The notes beneath the pieces were generated by a model. The model was not told the origin of the DNA, did not search any database, and saw only the letters and a list, made by a program, of their open reading frames with translations. Source: Yuukianura sp. NJ FZ-2021 (lineage: Eukaryota). From it: a stretch of 64,000 bases of DNA. Both the position numbers and the translations under genes were made by a program. Below, one piece after another: positions 18,930 to 33,731 of this stretch (position 1 is its first letter; each line of letters begins with the position of its first letter). The stretch spans positions 3,038,001 through 3,102,000 of the forward strand of contig CM102283.1 of assembly GCA_046563655.1 (NCBI GenBank). Direction: 5' to 3'.

Positions 18930-24376
<5,447 letters not shown>

Positions 24377-25209
24377 TTTGAATTGATTGACAGGTCCAGT
24401 TAAGATTGATTCTGTGATTACACGAAGACGACCAACAACGTGTAAATGGAAATCTGCTTGGCCAATTTGTCCACGGATTGTTCTGATGCCAATGTCAATG
24501 AACGTCTTATGTCTGTCTCTGTCACCTCAGCAGTAAATCAGCAACGTAGTAGATAGAAGACTGTCAGCGCGTGGCCCACCATGGATTAAGACGTTGCTCA
24601 ACCAAGAGTTCCTCTTCAATTGACCCAACACGGAAAATTGATGGTTTTTAGCTCAGCTGAGAATGGCAATTCTTGATATCCAAGGTTCAACCACCCACGG
24701 AACTAAAAATAAATCAAAACTCCACTTTACAAACATTGCAATAACGATTCTTTTAGTTACAAAAGTTACACTAAAAAATTCAAACCTTAAACTACTAATT
24801 GGTGATTACTAATCGCTGGCTCTTACGCTTAAGTTTAGTGACTGACGTGAATGAGACTGTGACTGACCTCTTGACATAGCAGCATGCAGTAAACCCCCTC
24901 ATTCTACAACACTTTTTCCGAAAAACCGTAAGTCGTAGGATTTTTGTTCGAAAAAATTCCTAAATCTTTGTTTCACGATAAAAGTTTACCGTAAAATTCT
25001 AAGATTGAGCAATTTTGCTGTAAAGAAACCCAGACATCCAAAAATTGAATCGATCATTCACGTTTTTGGCTCACATTTAGTTACGTTACGGTAAAGAACA
25101 GAAGAGTTATCCAAGTTTCGCAATAAGTTTTACTGTACTGAAAATTGACATACCTTGACCTCTTCCTGGATGGAACACTGGATCTGACAGGAACGTCCGA
25201 TTTTCGTCG

Positions 25210-25223
25210 GTTGCTATGGTAAC
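25210..25223. promoter_or_regulatory. RFX X-box-like palindrome GTTGCTATGGTAAC
   Basis: Matches the GTTGCYATGGYAAC X-box consensus. It lies just upstream of a candidate non-coding retm exon whose minus-strand donor AAG|GTATGT is at about 25152. Confidence 0.55.
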
Positions 25224-26005
25224 GGTAGAGTATTTGACAGCTAGAGCGAAGCAGCTGGTTTTAAGAGGATTCTGTCCTGTCCACCTACACCACTACTGAC
25301 ATGAGACAGACACTTTTTAGTGTGCAAATATTTATTGATCCTCAATTTCATTCAAAAGGAACAAACACTCTCTCCCGAGGTGTGCAAAATACTCAACTGA
25401 AACACTTTGCCAAAAATTGCACAGAAGGGAGCCCACTTCCATTGAATTATGGAGGCACCCAAATCCTGACGAAGTGGGCCGCTACTTGCCACATTTTTTA
25501 ACATGCGGACATGCCTGTTCCACATGTAACAAATGTGGTATGTAGTACTTCCTTAAATCCCACTTTGCACCAAAGCTTTACTTACACTTTTGACAGTTTA
25601 GTCATGAAAACTTCATTAGAGCAGAAATCAATTAAACAATTAAGTTACTTGATAATGATGTAAATACTGCCTAATTGTGGTAAGACAATTAATTAATGCC
25701 TGTAGTTCGTACAGGTGAGAGTGCTTCTTTTTTTTCACTGCTCTGCGATGTAAAGTACAACGCGAACAGCCGACCGGTCGTGAAGCAAAAACGCTTGTCG
25801 CTTACTGTTGAAAATGTTAAAAATTCAATCGATTTTCGGAACACGGGTTGTTTGAATGTAAAAAATGTTCGTTTTTATTCCGGACTTTCAATTTGGAGCT
25901 AAATTGCGACACCAGAGAGCAGCCAATTTTTTTTTTTTGAAAACTGGGCACAAGTTGAAAACAAGTCGTAGTTTTAGTTTCAATTGGATTTTGATAGACG
26001 ATGAT

Positions 26006-26463
26006 TCACTTCATGAGCTCCAGTTCCTCGGCTACACTCTGCTCAATTATGACCTAATAAAAAGTAATTAGTTTAGGTTAATTGAGAGTTCACTAAAGAA
26101 CTAAATTGTTAATCTTGATTTCCAAGGGATTCACCTTGTATAAAGCCTTGACATAATCCGAAGTTAAGCCGACCTTTGACCCTGCTGAACACAAAATGGC
26201 GATCAAGGACACCTCTCGTTGTAAATCCCTCACTGGCATTCCATTGGCTCTTTTGACCTCTCCAACTTCCAGGACCAACTCACGTCTTCTTCCCAGTAAC
26301 TTTATGATCTCTTGGTCCGTAGCTGTGATCTCCTTCCGAAGTCCATCCAGAAGATAACCTTTACCTTCAAGTTAATAATTAGTTAATTAGCACTTGACTT
26401 TCTTAATTAACTTCTTAATTGTCAATTACTTGCGTCCACAGTACTTCCAGTTCCAGCTTCCAT
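26006..26463 (-). CDS. Chorismate mutase, AroQ/type II (CM_2), PheA-like; probable horizontally acquired gene; 103 aa; coding exons 26463-26430, 26364-26135, 26053-26006
   Basis: Spliced product: MEAGTGSTVDASKGYLLDGLRKEITATDQEIIKLLGRRRELVLEVGEVKRANGMPVRDLQREVSLIAILCSAGSKVGLTSDYVKALYKVIIEQSVAEELELMK*. It aligns without gaps to the E. coli PheA CM domain as I recall it, with R11, R28, K39, D48, R51, E52 and S84 conserved. Introns are 65 and 81 nt, plus a 5'UTR intron at 26610-26528. Confidence 0.9.
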
Positions 26464-27107
26464 TGTGATTGTGAATCACTCCCCTTGCTCTTGATCTGAT
26501 CTCCTTCCAACGACTGTTTCTCTTCTCCTGCAACATTCAAATCTGTTAACATCTGCTACTGCATTAATCCGCGACTTAATTAATTTAACTGACATAAAGT
26601 TATTACTTACCTTTGTGCTTCACTTAAGTTTTACTCTTAACTTTCACTTTTAACTTAAGTTAATCCTCAAACTTAAGCCTATTTTTGACAAATTTTTATT
26701 AACCTTGTATCCTAAAATTAAGGTTACTCAGTTATGCTAATTAATGTCTAACATGAGACTTGAAATTATGCTTAGGAGAAAACAAGGTTTCCTTTGAAGG
26801 GTATATACACTTAAATTACAAAAAAGTCACGGGAATGTTAACTTTAACCTTAACACTAACTGCAATTACTTTTATAATACACTTTAGTCTATGTTTGCAT
26901 CCAAATCCACTAAAACTCAACCTTCCTCCAACCATATTAACCTAATTTTAATTCAAAAACTTTTGTAAGTTTTTGAAAATTTAAATTATTCCAGGACCGC
27001 TCTACGAGCAACTTAACAAAGATCGACAAAGTCAAAAAATCAAAATCCAAAAAATTCAACTTTCAAAAAAAAAGTTGTGTTTGGTAAGCTAATCTCACCG
27101 TTTGTCC

Positions 27108-29876
27108 TTAAGCCTCATCATCATCATCTTCCAGCAGTTTAGCATAAATATCCCTCGGATTAGCTCCTCCCTTTTTCTCTTCTTCCAGTCCTCCTTCCTT
27201 AATCGCTGAATCAGCGTCTGTCGCTGCTGCTTGCTCCGCCTGTTCGTCAAGTACCCCCTTCCAGTCCGCCTTCTCTGTCTCCAAGTCCCCACACAACTGA
27301 GCACACTTGGAGTCCTTGTGACTCATAAAAGTGAACTCGTACATCACTTGGACGAACTTCTGGAGAGCCACAGCGCATGTATTGCAGAGACGACGATCCT
27401 CCTCTCCAGGTTCTCCGATTGGCTCCAGCTTTGATAAGGGGTAGGCCCCTTTGTAGTGAGTATAGAAAGTGTTAAGGGCCTCGTAAATGTTCAAGGGAGC
27501 GTCACCACTCATGATCTGCATGTCCAAAGTCCACTTCTTCATTCTGGAGCTATCAAAAGTCTTAGCACAGTGGAGACATTCACAAGAATAAGACTGTTTG
27601 CTGCCCTTTGGTCTTCCTCTGGCTGGTGCAACATGTTCGCTGCTCTTCGTCGTCGTGGTGACGCTGTCGTCGTGGTCGGAGTCAGGAACGACGACATTTT
27701 TCTTGATTTTGTCAAATTCAGTGTCCGAGTCATGCGCAACAGGAGCGGAATCTGCAGCATCCTCACCACCAGACTAAAATGCATACAAAAAAGTATCAAG
27801 ATCAGTTAATCCACAGCTAAAATGATAATTAACTAATTGATTTTAGATTTTGAGTAATTAACTTTCTTACAGATTCATCCAATTTTTCACTTTTCTTGGC
27901 CACTGCTGGACCAGGACTGTCGTCGTTATTCAGTAGCTTCATCTTCGATGCCGGTCCAGCACGCGGCCTGCCTGGCGGACGCCCGCGTTTGCCTTTCTCA
28001 TCTTTGTAATTAACATGAAACATTAATTGAGATTAATAATAATGTTAATTACTTCCCAATTTTAACTTGAAGATTAACTTACCTTTAGCTTTGACCTCTG
28101 CTTCCTGTTTTGCTTTGTGCTTAGTCTCAAATTCTTCAATCAGTTCAGTACAGTTAAGATTTTCTTTCGGCTCCCAAGTGTTGTGCTCACTACAAAACAA
28201 AAAAAAAACAGTTAAAAATGTGTTCAAAATTGAAAAAGTTCAGAAGTTTTTGGACTTTTTGTTAAGTTTTTTCTTTTGCTGAGAACATCAACATGCAAAG
28301 TATAAAACTTACGGTCCAAATCCCTTCCAAGAGAGGTAGTACATGACTTTTTCTTTCCGAGTGCGCCCTCTACCCACAAAAGTACTTTTCTTATCCAGTA
28401 CTTCTTCAACTGAAAATTCACCTTCATCGTCCTCTTCATGCTCACTCACATCAGACTCCTTTTTCTTGTCTTTCAGCTTGCTCAACGGCACGTCATCATC
28501 AGAGTCGTCCAGGATATTAGACCAACTTGACTTTTTCTCAGTACCGGTTTGGTCATTCTTCTTAGGTGTTTCTTCCGTATCGGAACTCGGTTTCGGTTTG
28601 GCAGAACTGTTTCCGTTCCCTGTCACCAGTGGAGATGCTGCTAACCCCACGCGAGTCTTGGATGCTGGTCCTGGTCTTGGCCTGGGAGGCGTAGAAACGC
28701 CAACGGCAGGAGAACTTTTCACTTTACAAGGCAAAAGACGAGGTAAGACATTGAATAGTTTGGAAAAATGAGTTGAAACTGGTTAAAACGAGTTGAAATA
28801 CAAGAGTTTCAACAATTACCAGGAGCAGGGACGGGTTTGCTATCTGCTACGTCCTCGTCATCTGAAGATCCATAACTACGCTTGGCAGCGCTTGATTTGA
28901 CAACAGTCGCTCTATGCGGTCGGATGACGCCACCCTTGCCTGTAAAAATCAGAAGAAAATTACTTAACTTACTAAAACAAGAAAGTTATGATCCACTTCC
29001 GTCGAACTACACAGTGTTCACAAAGTGGCTGAAAATATCTCACCTTTCGATGACTTGTAATTGTCGGAATCATCTTCGTCCGAAGACGGTTTCTTAATTC
29101 TGGACGTTCCCACTGTTTGTTCAAAATGTTGAGAGAAAGTTAGACACATTTGTACAGTTTTAGTAAAAATTGAATGAAAACAAGCAGTTTTCATTTTATT
29201 TGTAAGTAGTTACGTCGTTTTGGGTTTGACTTTGCTTTTCGCTGGTCGTCACTTCCTGAGTCGTCTTCGGAAGAGGCTTTAGCCGCCTTGAATTTTTTGG
29301 ACGCAGCATTCCTTGTTGGGCGTCCTGCCCGGCCCGGTTTCCTATTACTGCTTCGTTTATAGGCTGTAAATAAGAAACTGTGTTAGCAATAGTTAATTCA
29401 TGTTAAGCACAAAACTTACCCGATGCCGATTCGTCTGATTCTTCATCTGATGATTTACTTCTTCCTACTTTCTTTCCATGAGCTCCCTTTCCTTTGGCTG
29501 TAATACAATTTAACATAAGTTTTAAGCTTGTTTCAACATGATATAAAAGTAGGACATTGTGAACGTACGTCAATTTGAAAAAAATGTCAAAAAACTTACA
29601 CTTGTCAGGAAGGAAGTCGTCGTCTTCAGAATCCGTTACATGCCCGCGCTTTTTCGATTTAAAGCTAATCTTTTCTGTGGAAATTGAAACAAAAGATGGA
29701 TTAGTCGAGTTTAATTAAAGTTTAAATTAAGTTTAACGCAACATACTCCCTCGTCCTCCATCATCGCTGTCGTCACTGTCAGACACATGAGCTAGAGACT
29801 TGTACTTTTTAGCGACGTTGACCTTGACCGGGGTGTCGTCATCCATGTCAATATCGGGAAGATCTTCGTCACTCAT
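27108..29876 (-). CDS. Chromodomain protein with AT-hooks, acidic/basic low-complexity N-terminus and C-terminal ZAD-like C4 zinc domain (about 10 exons)
   Basis: ATG at 29876 (MSDEDLPDID...). Chromodomain EFSVEEVLDKK...VMYYLSWKGFGP|EHNTWEPKENLNC.ELIEEFE, AT-hooks KRGRPPGRPR and ARGRPKGS, and last exon CLHC...LCNTCAVALQKF. The exons join in frame. Confidence 0.82.
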
Positions 29877-30224
29877 TATATGTTCTCAAAATTAATCGTA
29901 CTGCGTTGATCAATTAACTCCTGTCGTGTTTATCCCTAAACAATCTTCCTTCCGCTTCCGTAGCCTGTGAAGTGAAATTGAGCAAAAAATACGTTTACTA
30001 ATCGACCGTCACTCCAAATACTGCATGTAATAACATAAACCTTGTGTTGTCAGTGTCGCCCTGTCGCCTTACCTCAAAAGTAATTAGTGAGATTCCGAAT
30101 TAATTACAATTAAATCCAACTTGATTAACCGTCCGTCAATCTTCCTTCTTCCAAAATCACCGCAAGGTTTGCAAACAAAAGAATTTTTGTGTCAACTGCA
30201 CCGACAGTCTGGTACCTTCGCATT

Positions 30225-31980: not shown

Positions 31981-32694
31981 TAGCGACAGACAAGAATGTA
32001 AGTTAATTTGCTTACTTGCGTAAAATATTAACCTAAAATATATATCATACATTTTCTGAAGTTAACTAAAGTTAATGCTGAATTAATATTTTAAATTGAT
32101 TCATTTTGTTAACGTGTTGTCAAATTAAGTCATTCCTTCAGAGTGGTGAAAAGTACATACAAAAGTAACCCTTTGTTGAACGGTACAGAAAGCGGGAGTG
32201 TGAAAATAGGAGGCAAGTTTTAGATTTGAATTTTGCGCCACGCAGGCCACTTGTTTCAGCGTGCCCCTATTGAGCAGTGAATTTCTTAGTACAATAGTGC
32301 TTGTAAACTTAATTATAAATTGTATGTAAATTGTAACAGAAATATTTTGGATTATCTTTTCCTGAAAGCGGATTTTTGAAATTTTGAAAGTTCGTTAGTT
32401 GTAATTAATTTAACATTTAATTAAACGTATACAATTAAAAAGAAGTAGATGAAACAGGATTTGACCTTTATTTTTGTCCTGAATCAATGTGAAGTGGGAC
32501 TTCCAAAGTTCCCAAAATCCAAAAATATTACTGTACGGGACTTTGATCCAATTTCAAAAATTTTGGTCCATGTTTTCAAAAATCCTTCGGACCTTACACA
32601 CGCTTGGATTCAAACTTTTGATGTTCAGTTTCTTTGTGGACTTAAGGGTGTAAGGAAAGTCAAAAATTTCTAATCGCTTCCGAATTCCAAAAAA

Positions 32695-33731
32695 ATGAGG
32701 TAAAAACAATCAAGAGATTTAAGCAATTTTTCTTGCTTGTGTGTAACTTTTACTTTTCATTTTTTAAAAAAAAACTGAAACTTAAAAATTTCAGGATACT
32801 TGTACTTTTGTTGTGCTTGGCTTGTCCAGCACTTGGAGTTGGTCAAGGTTGGGCAATTGACCAACCCCATCGCTACATCATTCTAAACGGAGAGTACATT
32901 GAACTTCCCGTGGAAGAGCGGGAAACTGACAGCCAATCACTGCTCAGCAGTCTCAATCCTATGAACTTATTTCAAAAATTCTGGGATTCGCTGCCATCTC
33001 TTTCGTTTTTGAACCGTCCAGAAGAGCCCAATGCTTCAGAAAACGCTGTGGACACTTCATCTTCTGGAATTGGATTTGAGCATGCGCAAGAATCAGCTCC
33101 AGTGCCCAGCTCCGTGCCATTTTCAAATTACTTTTCAAATCCTGCCGCCTCTCTCCCAATGGCGGGAATCGGAGACTTTTTTGGCTTCGGGGGACTTGGT
33201 GGATTCATGAAGAAAAATTCACATTCCGTGAAGCGCAGAAGCGTCGTGCCTAGAAACATTCCTTCACTTGCTCAGAAGCGACAGACAGAACATACTGCAT
33301 CTACCGGGTCAAAATATTACTACAAGAGCTTGGGTCAAGGCAGTTTCATGCGGTATGAAGTACCCATGGCACATCAACCGAGTCAAGGTCAAAGGGTCAT
33401 GGGACAACCCATGGGTCAAGGTCAAGGGTCAATGAGAGGAGCTATCCCCCCTGGGTCGTACAACCCATATGGGTCAAAGTACAATCCAAAGCTGATACCA
33501 CAGTACACAAAACCATATTTTGTGTCAGGGTCAAAGGTCACGACGACCACTCCCACAACTACGACAGCTTCTGACTTGGAGGATCCCTTCCCTTGTCCAA
33601 AAGTGGGACTTTGGACATATGAAAATGGAATGTGCAGGGCAGTTCAGGCCATGCCACCCTGGGGATGCAAACCCATTGACCTTGCACAGTCAGGGAAACT
33701 GGTCATGTGCAGAGACAAAGTGTTTTATTAA
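32695..33731 (+). CDS. Orphan secreted protein/prepropeptide with a C-terminal 4-Cys module (exons 32695-32699, 32795-33731)
   Basis: ATGAG|gt...tttcag|G gives the signal peptide MRILVLLLCLACPALG. A long open frame follows, with KRR and KR sites, a Thr-rich linker and C-terminal CPKVG..MC..WGC..MC. Confidence 0.7.

What the first reader, a model, noticed from the sequence alone, without database searches (positions are those of the whole stretch)
26006..26640. Intron-containing bacterial-type chorismate mutase (AroQ/PheA-like) embedded in an animal genome
Seen: three GT-AG-joined coding exons give a clean 103-aa ORF with an in-frame upstream stop, plus a 5'UTR intron (26610-26528). The ORF track shows only a 61-aa fragment. 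The gene sits between ordinary animal genes (retm and a chromodomain gene), and its introns resemble those of its neighbour. By hand alignment to the E. coli PheA CM domain from memory, about 33 of 82 positions are identical with no gaps, including R11, R28, K39, PVRD48, R51, E52 and S84. Established: animals lack the shikimate pathway; horizontally acquired chorismate mutases are known in plant-parasitic nematodes (secreted effectors) and some sap-feeding hemipterans (symbiont complementation). Inference: this is a domesticated bacterial gene. It has no signal peptide, so it is probably cytosolic. It may act on dietary, fungal or symbiont chorismate, or belong to a wider acquired aromatic pathway elsewhere in the genome.
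Basis: partly seen in the sequence, partly recalled or inferred. Interest (0 to 1): 0.95.

Follow-up and report, generated by a model that had tools for sequence, protein, structure and literature searches.

The report
Bacterial chorismate mutase gene in springtail
A small enzyme gene of bacterial type (chorismate mutase, a step towards phenylalanine and tyrosine that animals normally lack) sits, with introns, between ordinary animal genes in what looks like a springtail genome, and has been kept intact there for a long time.

Summary
On the minus strand, three GT-AG-joined exons (26463-26430, 26364-26135, 26053-26006) give a 103-aa ORF. Exon 2 alone hits Pfam CM_2 at E 5e-17, and adding exon 3 raises a bacterial-only profile score from 93.2 to 107.0 bits.

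The neighbours are animal genes. The retm/SEC14L1 neighbour is closest to Collembola among named proteins.

A 3372-bp metagenome contig (L001) carries a 65%-identical copy behind the same chromodomain-type neighbour. It has intron 1 at the same position but lacks intron 2. Synonymous sites are saturated while pN is 0.25. Seven catalytic residues of E. coli chorismate mutase are kept; Gln88 is Glu, as in 28 of 129 prokaryotic relatives. The model matches PDB 1ECM at TM 0.91.

My reading is an old, domesticated horizontal acquisition of an AroQ-alpha chorismate mutase. Such transfers are known in plant-parasitic nematodes, whiteflies and psyllids. My searches found none reported for springtails.

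Expression, the chorismate source and the donor remain open. No RNA run was listed and no whole genome is held.

The parts
26430..26463 (-). Coding exon 1: ATG at 26463-26461, 34 nt, ends in phase 1.
   Evidence: An in-frame TGA lies at 26478-26476. The start Met-Glu-Ala is shared with the L001 copy.
26365..26429 (-). Intron 1: 65 nt, GT..AG, GC 23%.
   Evidence: It holds stops and is not a multiple of 3, so it must be removed. Its acceptor lies at the same position and phase as in L001. An alternative in-frame acceptor lies 6 nt downstream (read).
26135..26364 (-). Coding exon 2: 230 nt, covering helices 1-2 and the start of helix 3 of the AroQ domain.
   Evidence: Pfam CM_2 E 5.1e-17; 1ecm_A E 7e-10. 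It carries the equivalents of R11, R28, K39, D48, R51 and E52.
26054..26134 (-). Intron 2: 81 nt, GT..AG, phase 0, GC 27%. It is absent from the L001 copy.
   Evidence: Removing it adds 13.8 bits of profile score.
26006..26053 (-). Coding exon 3: the end of helix 3, with the Ser84 equivalent and Glu at the Gln88 position. Stop TGA at 26008-26006.
   Evidence: The last 9 residues are identical to those of the L001 protein.
26528..26610 (-). Possible 5'UTR intron (83 nt, GTAAGT..TTGCAG). Unverified.
   Evidence: Consensus ends only. No RNA data.
25874..25879 (-). AATAAA, a possible polyadenylation signal about 130 nt after the stop.
   Evidence: Read. Inference only.
27108..27773 (-). Last large exon of the upstream neighbour, on the same strand. 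It has no Pfam family.
   Evidence: It is 45% identical (E 5e-43) to L001 824-1408, which lies upstream of the L001 chorismate mutase gene in the same orientation.
28309..28782 (-). Exon of the upstream neighbour that holds the first half of a chromodomain-like motif.
   Evidence: It is 39% identical (E 8e-10) to L001 96-326. That stretch and the next L001 exon match the two halves of Pfam Chromo, each below threshold. The window exon itself gave no Pfam hit.
19352..24376 (-). Downstream neighbour: a retm/SEC14L1-like gene (PRELI, CRAL_TRIO_N, CRAL_TRIO) with short AT-rich introns.
   Evidence: Pfam. tblastn exon map with the Orchesella dallaii protein. Best full-gene matches are Collembola.

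Best explanation
This is a nuclear, intron-bearing gene for a small (103-aa) AroQ-alpha (E. coli P-protein-type) chorismate mutase. An ancestor of a springtail-like hexapod acquired it from a bacterium, and it has since been kept under purifying selection at a fixed chromosomal place, just downstream of a chromodomain-type gene.

**Shown**
- The family, the fold and the kept catalytic residues.
- Host-like introns and base composition.
- Conserved synteny with a 65%-identical copy in a second eukaryotic contig.
- One shared intron and one lineage-specific intron.
- No remnant of a fused bacterial partner domain.

**Inferred**
- The protein has no signal peptide. It forms the intertwined AroQ homodimer in the cytosol, with each active site built from both chains, and converts chorismate to prephenate.
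- The animal has no known shikimate pathway, so chorismate would come from gut or intracellular microbes, or from lysed fungal or bacterial food.
- Prephenate would then go to phenylpyruvate and, through host aminotransferases, to phenylalanine and tyrosine for protein and cuticle. This is the logic proposed for the whitefly and psyllid genes.
- Glu in place of Gln88 may shift the pH optimum downward (recalled from work on the E. coli Q88E variant and on yeast and mycobacterial enzymes; no call supports this).

I put about 0.85 on the identity and origin of the gene, and about 0.35 on this particular physiological role.
For: **Family**
- Pfam CM_2 at 62.3 bits against a cut-off of 27.
- The best solved relative is 1ecm_A, at E 7e-10 for exon 2 and 2.8e-10 for the L001 copy, aligned without gaps over 83 columns.
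- The AlphaFold model of the L001 copy has pLDDT 97.3 and three helices, and matches 1ECM at TM 0.91 and rmsd 0.9.
- The equivalents of R11, R28, K39, D48, R51, E52 and S84 are kept in both animal copies. Q88 is E in both, as in 28 of 129 prokaryotic homologues.
- Dimer model: score 0.90 against a best control of 0.00. The mark was reached by 20 of 30 proteins solved as pairs of one chain and by 1 of 23 solved as single chains. The runs agree in at least 98% of contacts and the partner's pLDDT is at least 92. The pass may come from memory of the solved 1ECM dimer.

**Host gene**
- The introns are 65 and 81 nt at 23-27% GC, against exons at 46-50% GC. The neighbour's short AT-rich introns look alike.
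- CDS GC is 46.8% and GC3 48%, against neighbour exons at GC 45-50% and GC3 42-52%.
- Splicing restores helix 3, adding 13.8 bits.

**Linkage**
- L001 has a chromodomain gene, then a homologue of the window's upstream exon, then the chorismate mutase gene, in the same order and strand.
- A 1503-bp contig from a run labelled as a different organism, in a different study, spans 26095-27562 with 55 other letters and 28 gaps.

**Selection**
- 59 of 91 residues are identical. pN is 0.249 and pS 0.841 (saturated). Differences by codon position are 33/18/56.

**Origin**
- Of 838 HMMER hits at E<=1e-3 among 1.84 billion representatives, only L001's protein is below 1e-10. The next hits are 37-46% identical small chorismate mutases.
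- Every hit that carries an organism name is bacterial: 1 of the 8 looked up, and 7 of the 120 listed.
- The two animal copies are sisters (SH-aLRT 96) inside this set.

**Host taxon**
- Over the whole retm gene, identity is 67.9% to Allacma fusca, 65.6% to Orchesella dallaii and 61.7% to Folsomia candida, and at most 59.7% in the other 19 named or unnamed arthropod and vertebrate rows among the 25 printed. An unnamed JGI protein reaches 69%.
Against: - **No expression evidence.** No listed sequencing run is on record as RNA, so the splice junctions, the start codon and the 5'UTR intron rest on sequence and homology alone.
- **No whole genome.** None is held, so I could not look for a chorismate source, a prephenate dehydratase or dehydrogenase, or any other acquired aromatic-pathway gene. 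Only one 64-kb window was seen, and only 30 of its larger stop-to-stop ORFs went to Pfam.
- **Donor unresolved.** The nearest rows (P0010, P0050, P0107; SH-aLRT 88) are unnamed metagenome proteins, and 77 of the tree's 128 inner branches are open.
- **Subfamily thresholds missed.** No NCBIfam equivalog threshold is reached. The best, TIGR01797, scores 60.5 against 73.7.
- **Host taxon thinly based.** 'Springtail' rests on one neighbour gene.
- **Fold and dimer are from the relative.** The window's own protein is split by introns, so the fold and the dimer model were made with the L001 copy.
- **Relatives may be missing.** The HMMER search found no annotated chorismate mutase from the sequenced springtails. 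Either the gene is missing from them, or short intron-split genes were not annotated.
Confidence: 0.7

Rival explanations
1. The fold is AroQ but the job is different. It could be an isochorismate-pyruvate lyase (PchB-like), or a mutase for a chorismate analogue in a horizontally acquired secondary-metabolite pathway. It could also be a supplier of prephenate as a co-substrate for a prephenate-dependent enzyme (U32-type hydroxylase or CmoA-type) rather than for amino-acid synthesis.
For: - PchB structures are good structural matches, at TM 0.83, and NF005475 isochorismate lyase gives E 1.5e-7.
- Small stand-alone AroQ genes next to U32 enzymes were noted in other genomes of this scan (unchecked leads).
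- The animal has no obvious chorismate supply for bulk amino-acid synthesis (established knowledge: animals lack the shikimate pathway).
Against: - Chorismate mutase models score far higher than the lyase model: TIGR01797 at 60.5 bits against NF005475 at 31.5 bits for the L001 copy.
- The closest solved relative by sequence and by fold is E. coli chorismate mutase.
- No U32 or other bacterial-type gene was seen among the window ORFs sent to Pfam, nor in L001.
Confidence: 0.15
2. It is a decaying or silent relic of a transfer: a sequence that still looks like a gene but is not expressed or not functional.
For: No RNA evidence could be obtained. The gene is tiny and was not matched by any annotated springtail protein in the HMMER search.
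Against: - The ORF is intact in two lineages whose synonymous sites are saturated. pN/pS is 0.30, and differences fall mostly at third positions.
- 7 of 8 catalytic positions are kept, and the eighth carries a natural variant.
- The splice sites are canonical.
- The gene is better conserved (65%) than its upstream neighbour (45%).
Confidence: 0.05
3. It is bacterial contamination or an assembly chimera, not part of the animal genome.
For: The closest relatives with organism names are bacterial.
Against: - Two spliceosomal-type introns interrupt the reading frame.
- Base composition equals that of the neighbours.
- The same gene order appears in an independent metagenome contig.
- A contig of another run bridges the gene and its neighbour.
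- No bacterial flanking genes or fused-domain remnants are present.
Confidence: 0.02
4. It is a vertically inherited eukaryotic gene that has been lost from most animals.
Against: - Only one relative above 50% identity exists among 1.84 billion representatives.
- The protein is the 90-100-aa three-helix bacterial AroQ-alpha form.
- All organism-named relatives are bacterial.
- The Atlas look-alike clusters are prokaryotic CM_2.
Confidence: 0.03

Closest known systems
E. coli chorismate mutase domain of the P-protein (EcCM, PDB 1ECM; AroQ-alpha)
   Same: Same size, three-helix fold and gapless alignment. The equivalents of R11, R28, K39, D48, R51, E52 and S84 are kept. A homodimer is predicted.
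   Different: It is a stand-alone gene without a prephenate dehydratase domain. Glu stands in place of Gln88. It is 40% identical over exon 2 (27 of 68 columns). It is encoded in an animal genome and carries introns.
Horizontally acquired chorismate mutase of whiteflies and psyllids (Bemisia tabaci CM, PMC4607527; Pachypsylla, cited in PMC4943190)
   Same: It is a bacterial chorismate mutase gene resident in an arthropod nuclear genome. It is thought to complete phenylalanine synthesis from microbially made precursors (passages read).
   Different: Those hosts are sap feeders with bacteriocyte symbionts, and the whitefly gene is attributed to Enterobacteriales. Here the host looks like a springtail, no symbiont context is known, and the donor is unresolved. 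I could not fetch the hemipteran sequences, so I did not test whether the acquisitions are independent.
Secreted chorismate mutase effectors of plant-parasitic nematodes (Hoplolaimina; Noon and Baum 2016, PMC4828791)
   Same: They are bacterial chorismate mutases acquired by an animal, and they carry spliceosomal introns (passages read).
   Different: The nematode genes are reported to encode secreted effectors and to cluster with Burkholderia chorismate mutases (abstract and passages). That they belong to the longer AroQ-gamma class is my recall. The window's protein has no signal peptide by eye. It scores only 25-29 bits on the gamma-subclass model TIGR01806 (cut-off 74.15), against 52-60 bits on the P-protein-type model.
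PchB isochorismate-pyruvate lyase of Pseudomonas aeruginosa (PDB 2H9D, 3HGX)
   Same: Same AroQ fold and similar size, with TM 0.83-0.84.
   Different: Sequence identity is lower, at 21-23%. The family model scores 31.5 bits against a cut-off of 126.

Membership tests
AroQ / Pfam CM_2 chorismate mutase type II | The sequence matches the family profile above the curated threshold. | tested here: met
   Exon 2 alone scores 62.3 bits against a cut-off of 27, E 5.1e-17, over profile positions 1-68 of 80. The spliced product extends the match in a bacterial-only profile.
AroQ / Pfam CM_2 chorismate mutase type II | All-helical three-helix monomer, superposable on EcCM. | tested here: met
   Tested on the 65%-identical L001 copy, not on the window's split protein. 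pLDDT is 97.3 with helices at 2-40, 47-63 and 68-90. Against 1ecm, TM is 0.91-0.92 and rmsd 0.8-0.9.
AroQ / Pfam CM_2 chorismate mutase type II | Active-site residues of EcCM: Arg11', Arg28, Lys39, Asp48, Arg51, Glu52, Ser84, Gln88. This list is recalled from the EcCM literature. | tested here: met
   Seven of the eight are identical in the window and L001 proteins. The Gln88 position is Glu in both, as in 28 of 129 prokaryotic homologues.
AroQ / Pfam CM_2 chorismate mutase type II | Intertwined homodimer that builds the active sites. | tested here: met
   Model only, made with the L001 copy. The score is 0.90 against a best control of 0.00. The mark was reached by 20 of 30 proteins solved as pairs of one chain and by 1 of 23 solved as single chains. 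The runs agree in at least 98% of contacts and pLDDT is at least 92. The pass may come from memory of 1ECM.
AroQ / Pfam CM_2 chorismate mutase type II | Catalyses chorismate to prephenate. | not testable with these tools
   This needs an enzyme assay or complementation.
NCBIfam TIGR01797 CM_P_1 (P-protein chorismate mutase domain, equivalog) | Score above the equivalog cut-off. | tested here: not met
   It scores 60.5 bits (L001 copy) and 51.9 bits (window exon 2) against a cut-off of 73.7. It is the best of 18-20 models but lies below threshold. I therefore file the gene only under the general AroQ family.
AroQ-gamma secreted chorismate mutases (nematode effector type) | Signal peptide and a match to the gamma-subclass model. 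| tested here: not met
   TIGR01806 scores 28.6 and 25.4 bits against a cut-off of 74.15. The N-terminus is hydrophilic, judged by reading with no predictor.
PchB-type isochorismate-pyruvate lyase | Match to the lyase equivalog model. | tested here: not met
   NF005475 scores 31.5 and 23.2 bits against a cut-off of 126.
Horizontally acquired bacterial gene domesticated in an animal genome | Physical linkage to bona fide animal genes, reproduced in independent data. | tested here: met
   The window neighbours have animal-type domains. L001 shows the same synteny. A contig of a run from another study spans 26095-27562.
Horizontally acquired bacterial gene domesticated in an animal genome | Host-type spliceosomal introns and ameliorated composition. 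| tested here: met
   Sequence evidence only. The introns are GT-AG, 65 and 81 nt, at 23-27% GC. Exon GC and GC3 equal those of the neighbours. The junctions were not confirmed by RNA.
Horizontally acquired bacterial gene domesticated in an animal genome | Phylogenetic nesting within a prokaryotic donor clade. | tested here: inconclusive
   The two animal copies are sisters (SH-aLRT 96) and group with three unnamed metagenome proteins (SH-aLRT 88). 77 of 128 inner branches are open. The named relatives are bacterial. One scan of prokaryote genomes found only a 40%-identical Polyangiaceae MAG gene.
Horizontally acquired bacterial gene domesticated in an animal genome | Transcription and correct splicing in the host. 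| not testable with these tools
   No run on record as RNA was listed.
Horizontally acquired bacterial gene domesticated in an animal genome | Purifying selection after transfer. | tested here: met
   pN is 0.249 against pS 0.841 over 91 codons between the window and L001.

The most novel reading that the evidence does not exclude
Springtails are early-branching hexapods that feed on detritus and fungi and have no bacteriome. In this reading they anciently captured a bacterial chorismate mutase as one piece of a host-encoded aromatic pathway. Other acquired shikimate-branch or prephenate-using genes would lie elsewhere in the genome. The animal could then make phenylalanine, tyrosine or its aromatic defence chemicals from microbial intermediates. 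That would be a free-living animal with part of the shikimate network in its own nucleus.
Probability: 0.1. Interest if true: 0.85.

Novelty: new member of a known kind. Interest (0 to 1): 0.55.

Why it matters
Animals are textbook auxotrophs for aromatic amino acids. The few known animal chorismate mutases serve either plant parasitism (nematode effectors) or an obligate bacteriocyte symbiosis (whiteflies, psyllids).

A long-kept, apparently cytosolic chorismate mutase in a soil hexapod with neither lifestyle raises two questions: where its chorismate comes from, and what prephenate is used for. The answers could be gut microbes, food fungi or other acquired genes.

The locus also gives a dated example of intron gain in a transferred gene. 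One intron is shared by two deeply diverged lineages, and one is specific to this lineage, inserted at an AAG|GT proto-splice site.

If the gene turns out to be widespread in Collembola, it adds a metabolic item to their already large set of foreign genes. It would also be a possible route by which shikimate-pathway inhibitors reach soil fauna through their microbes.

Tried and rejected
- **Whole-genome search.** I tried to look for other aromatic-pathway genes, but no genome is held for this window.
- **Word-index search.** The search with exon 2 found nothing: 2 candidates, none significant. The full HMMER scan was needed.
- **RNA evidence.** No RNA holder was listed. Laying four runs gave DNA-type contigs only, with no joint at either chorismate mutase intron, so expression is untested.
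- **Donor search.**
  - Two alignments were too diverse for the pattern scan.
  - A three-row alignment found one Polyangiaceae MAG gene at 40% identity.
  - Cluster look-ups of 18 near hits gave one organism name, an Aeromonas sp. MAG.
  - The profile search named 7 of 120 hits, all bacterial.
  - The donor stays unresolved.
- **Spurious hit.** P0005, a 3993-aa repeat protein, stands in the HMMER list with no matched stretch. I set it aside as spurious.
- **Rows left out.** Hits longer than 200 aa (20 of 149) were left out of the tree and of the residue counts.
- **Fused-domain remnants.** A tblastn of 19 longer fused chorismate mutase proteins against the window and L001 hit only the chorismate mutase domain. 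There were also two chance-level hits at E 0.3 and 0.6.
- **Atlas look-alikes.** These were only prokaryotic CM_2 clusters.
- **Earlier findings of this scan.** None for this genome or sequence.
- **Literature.** Three searches combined 'chorismate mutase' or 'chorismate' with Collembola, springtail or Folsomia candida. They returned two papers, and neither listing points to a springtail chorismate mutase. For PMC8601627 I read the passages, where the two terms are unrelated. PMC8537960, on tryptophanase, I saw only as a search listing with the start of its abstract.
- **Chromodomain label.** The window exon itself gave no Pfam hit. Only the L001 homologue shows the two half-domain matches, each below threshold.
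Full report
**What is there**

On the minus strand of the window I read and spliced by script three exons: 26463-26430, 26364-26135 and 26053-26006. They are joined by GT..AG introns of 65 and 81 nt. The product is a 312-nt, 103-codon reading frame ending in TGA (26008-26006).

An in-frame TGA lies five codons before the ATG. The stop-to-stop frame over exon 2 is 92 aa and has no usable start codon. Exon 2 therefore cannot be translated without exon 1.

I also note a second in-frame acceptor 6 nt downstream of the intron-1 acceptor (read). It would remove two residues.

**It is a chorismate mutase**

- Exon 2 alone (P0001, 75 aa) matches Pfam CM_2 at E 5.1e-17, 62.3 bits against a gathering score of 27.
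- I built a profile from 20 bacterial homologues that had been picked on exon 2 only. Against it, the spliced protein scores 107.0 bits, exon 2 alone 93.2, and a read-through of intron 2 93.8. The second splice therefore restores the missing end of helix 3.
- The best solved relative is the E. coli P-protein mutase domain 1ecm_A, aligned without gaps. It gives E 7e-10 with 27 of 68 columns identical by my count.
- The uninterrupted copy in L001 aligns over 83 columns at E 2.8e-10.
- Mapping onto the EcCM numbering (residue list recalled from the EcCM literature), R11, R28, K39, D48, R51, E52 and S84 are kept in both animal proteins. Q88 is Glu in both, a state also found in 28 of 129 prokaryotic homologues.
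- An AlphaFold model of the L001 copy has pLDDT 97.3 and three helices. It superposes on 1ECM at TM 0.91 and rmsd 0.9.
- A two-copy model passes the dimer test: score 0.90 against a best control of 0.00. The mark was reached by 20 of 30 proteins solved as pairs of one chain and by 1 of 23 solved as single chains. The runs agree in at least 98% of contacts and pLDDT is at least 92. The 1ECM dimer is solved, so this pass may reflect likeness only.
- Among NCBIfam models the P-protein-type domain TIGR01797 is best, at 60.5 bits, but it lies below its cut-off of 73.7. The secreted gamma subclass scores 28.6 of 74.15, and the isochorismate lyase model 31.5 of 126.

I therefore file the protein under AroQ in general, closest to the alpha (EcCM-like) form, and not under any equivalog.

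**It belongs to the animal genome**

The window is uniformly 31-42% GC and carries ordinary animal genes:
- an LRR protein, a BTB_SANBR protein, a scramblase and a cytochrome P450;
- directly downstream of the mutase, a retm/SEC14L1-like gene (PRELI, CRAL_TRIO_N, CRAL_TRIO) running from 24376 to 19352 on the same strand.

Over that whole gene, the best organism-named matches are three springtails: Allacma fusca 67.9%, Orchesella dallaii 65.6% and Folsomia candida 61.7%. An unnamed JGI protein reaches 69.0%. The other 19 arthropod and vertebrate rows of the 25 printed reach at most 59.7%. So the host is most likely a collembolan, on the strength of one gene.

The mutase's introns are 23-27% GC and its exons 46-50% GC. 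They resemble the short AT-rich introns of retm. Its GC and GC3 (46.8%, 48%) lie within the range of the neighbours' exons.

A 1503-bp contig from a run labelled as a different organism, in a different study, covers 26095-27562 with 55 differing letters and 28 gaps. It runs from mutase exon 2 into the last exon of the upstream neighbour. A contig of the main sample covers 25344-26204.

**A second, diverged copy at the same place**

The exhaustive HMMER scan of 1.84 billion representatives gave 838 hits at E<=1e-3, but only one below 1e-10. That hit is P0002, at 61% identity. It is encoded on the 3372-bp metagenome contig L001.

L001 carries, in the same order and orientation as the window:
- a chromodomain gene, whose two exons match the two halves of Pfam Chromo, each below threshold, and are 39% identical to the window exon 28312-28782 (E 8e-10);
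- a homologue of the window's 27111-27773 exon, 45% identical (E 5e-43);
- then the mutase.

The database protein reads through a 99-nt GT..AG segment. Removing that segment leaves a phase-1 junction at exactly the position of the window's intron-1 acceptor. The window's intron 2 is absent from L001, where the codons run on. In the window, intron 2 sits at an AAG|GT site.

Over 91 aligned codons, 59 residues are identical. pN is 0.249 and pS 0.841, which is saturated. Differences fall 33/18/56 on codon positions 1/2/3. The mutase is thus better conserved than its neighbour.

My inference is that the gene was already in place, with intron 1, before these two lineages split long ago, and that it has been under purifying selection since.

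**Where it came from**

After P0002, the nearest hits are small prokaryote-type chorismate mutases at 37-46% identity.
- Of 18 hits looked up, one carries an organism name, an Aeromonas sp. MAG.
- Of 120 hits listed by a profile search, 7 carry organism names, all bacterial.

In a quick maximum-likelihood tree of 131 rows and 96 columns, the two animal proteins are sisters (SH-aLRT 96). They join three unnamed metagenome proteins (SH-aLRT 88), but 77 of 128 inner branches are unresolved. Hits over 200 aa were left out.

A pattern scan of one genome per prokaryotic species found only a Polyangiaceae MAG gene at 40% identity. A tblastn with 19 fused chorismate mutase proteins hit nothing but the mutase domain in the window and L001. 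No trace of a dehydratase, dehydrogenase or DAHP-synthase partner was carried along or survives.

The origin is bacterial-type. The donor is unknown.

**How it most likely works**

What is shown is an intact, conserved AroQ active site in a 103-aa protein with a hydrophilic N-terminus. The rest is inferred:
- The protein is a cytosolic homodimer that turns chorismate into prephenate.
- Animals lack the shikimate pathway (established knowledge), so chorismate must come from gut or intracellular microbes or from digested fungi and bacteria.
- Prephenate can pass to phenylpyruvate and, by host transaminases, to phenylalanine. This is the scheme proposed for the whitefly gene (PMC4607527, passages read).

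I give this role about 0.35. I give about 0.15 to another use of the same chemistry: a lyase, a secondary-metabolite mutase, or prephenate supply for a prephenate-dependent enzyme. The last idea was prompted by unchecked notes of this scan on phage and archaeal mutase-U32 pairs. The remainder is spread over 'function not yet guessable', relic, artefact and vertical descent.

**Comparison and novelty**

Horizontally acquired chorismate mutases in animals are established in three groups:
- Plant-parasitic nematodes, as secreted effectors clustering with Burkholderia and carrying introns (Noon and Baum 2016, PMC4828791; abstract and passages).
- Bemisia tabaci, attributed to Enterobacteriales and assigned to phenylalanine synthesis (PMC4607527; passages).
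- Psyllids, as cited in PMC4943190 (passages).

The present gene is of the short alpha form with no signal peptide, in a soil hexapod that has no known bacteriome. Three searches combining 'chorismate mutase' or 'chorismate' with Collembola, springtail or Folsomia candida found no report of such a gene. A wider search on arthropods listed only hemipteran, nematode and unrelated papers (search listing only).

My verdict is a new member of a known kind. It is real and well supported as a domesticated transfer. It is interesting mainly for the unanswered question of substrate supply and for its clean record of stepwise intron gain.

**Limits**

- No RNA data and no whole genome were available.
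- The host taxon rests on one gene.
- The fold and dimer were modelled on the L001 copy, because the window's protein is split by introns.
- The donor is unresolved.
- The hemipteran and nematode sequences were not compared directly.

Noticed in passing
window 26358-26366 (minus strand): There are tandem in-frame acceptors at intron 1 (..AAG|GTAAAG|GT..), 6 nt apart. Either keeps the frame, and the products differ by two residues (Lys-Gly). The upstream acceptor matches the junction position in L001.
   Followed up: partly
L001 2804-3371 (minus strand): A second chromodomain-type gene lies downstream of the L001 chorismate mutase gene on the opposite strand. Its two exons match the two halves of Pfam Chromo (E 0.0035 and 0.0027). 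So L001 has chromodomain genes on both sides of the mutase.
   Followed up: partly
window 19000-30000, runs X1-X3: Contigs from the main sample fall into likeness classes of 99+/95-99/90-95/under 90%, with counts such as 104/61/40/27. This suggests divergent haplotypes, paralogous copies or mixed individuals in that sample.
   Followed up: no
window 20508-20568: An acidic Asp/Glu run lies inside the retm-like gene. It is encoded by a simple repeat that read laying flagged as a place where reads seem cut.
   Followed up: no
window 32646-33731 (+): The longest uninterrupted frame near the gene is 361 aa, rich in Gly, Gln, Pro and Thr, and may have a signal-like N-terminal stretch. It has no Pfam family at E<=0.01.
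   Followed up: no
window 27108-27773 (-) and L001 824-1411 (+): A Cys-containing region is conserved between the two loci at 45% identity and has no Pfam family. It appears to be the C-terminal part of the chromodomain-type neighbour and may be an undescribed domain.
   Followed up: partly
HMMER hit list, P0005: A 3993-aa highly repetitive bacterial surface-type protein appears fourth in the hit list (E 3.3e-09) with no matched stretch. I take it to be a composition or repeat artefact.
   Followed up: partly
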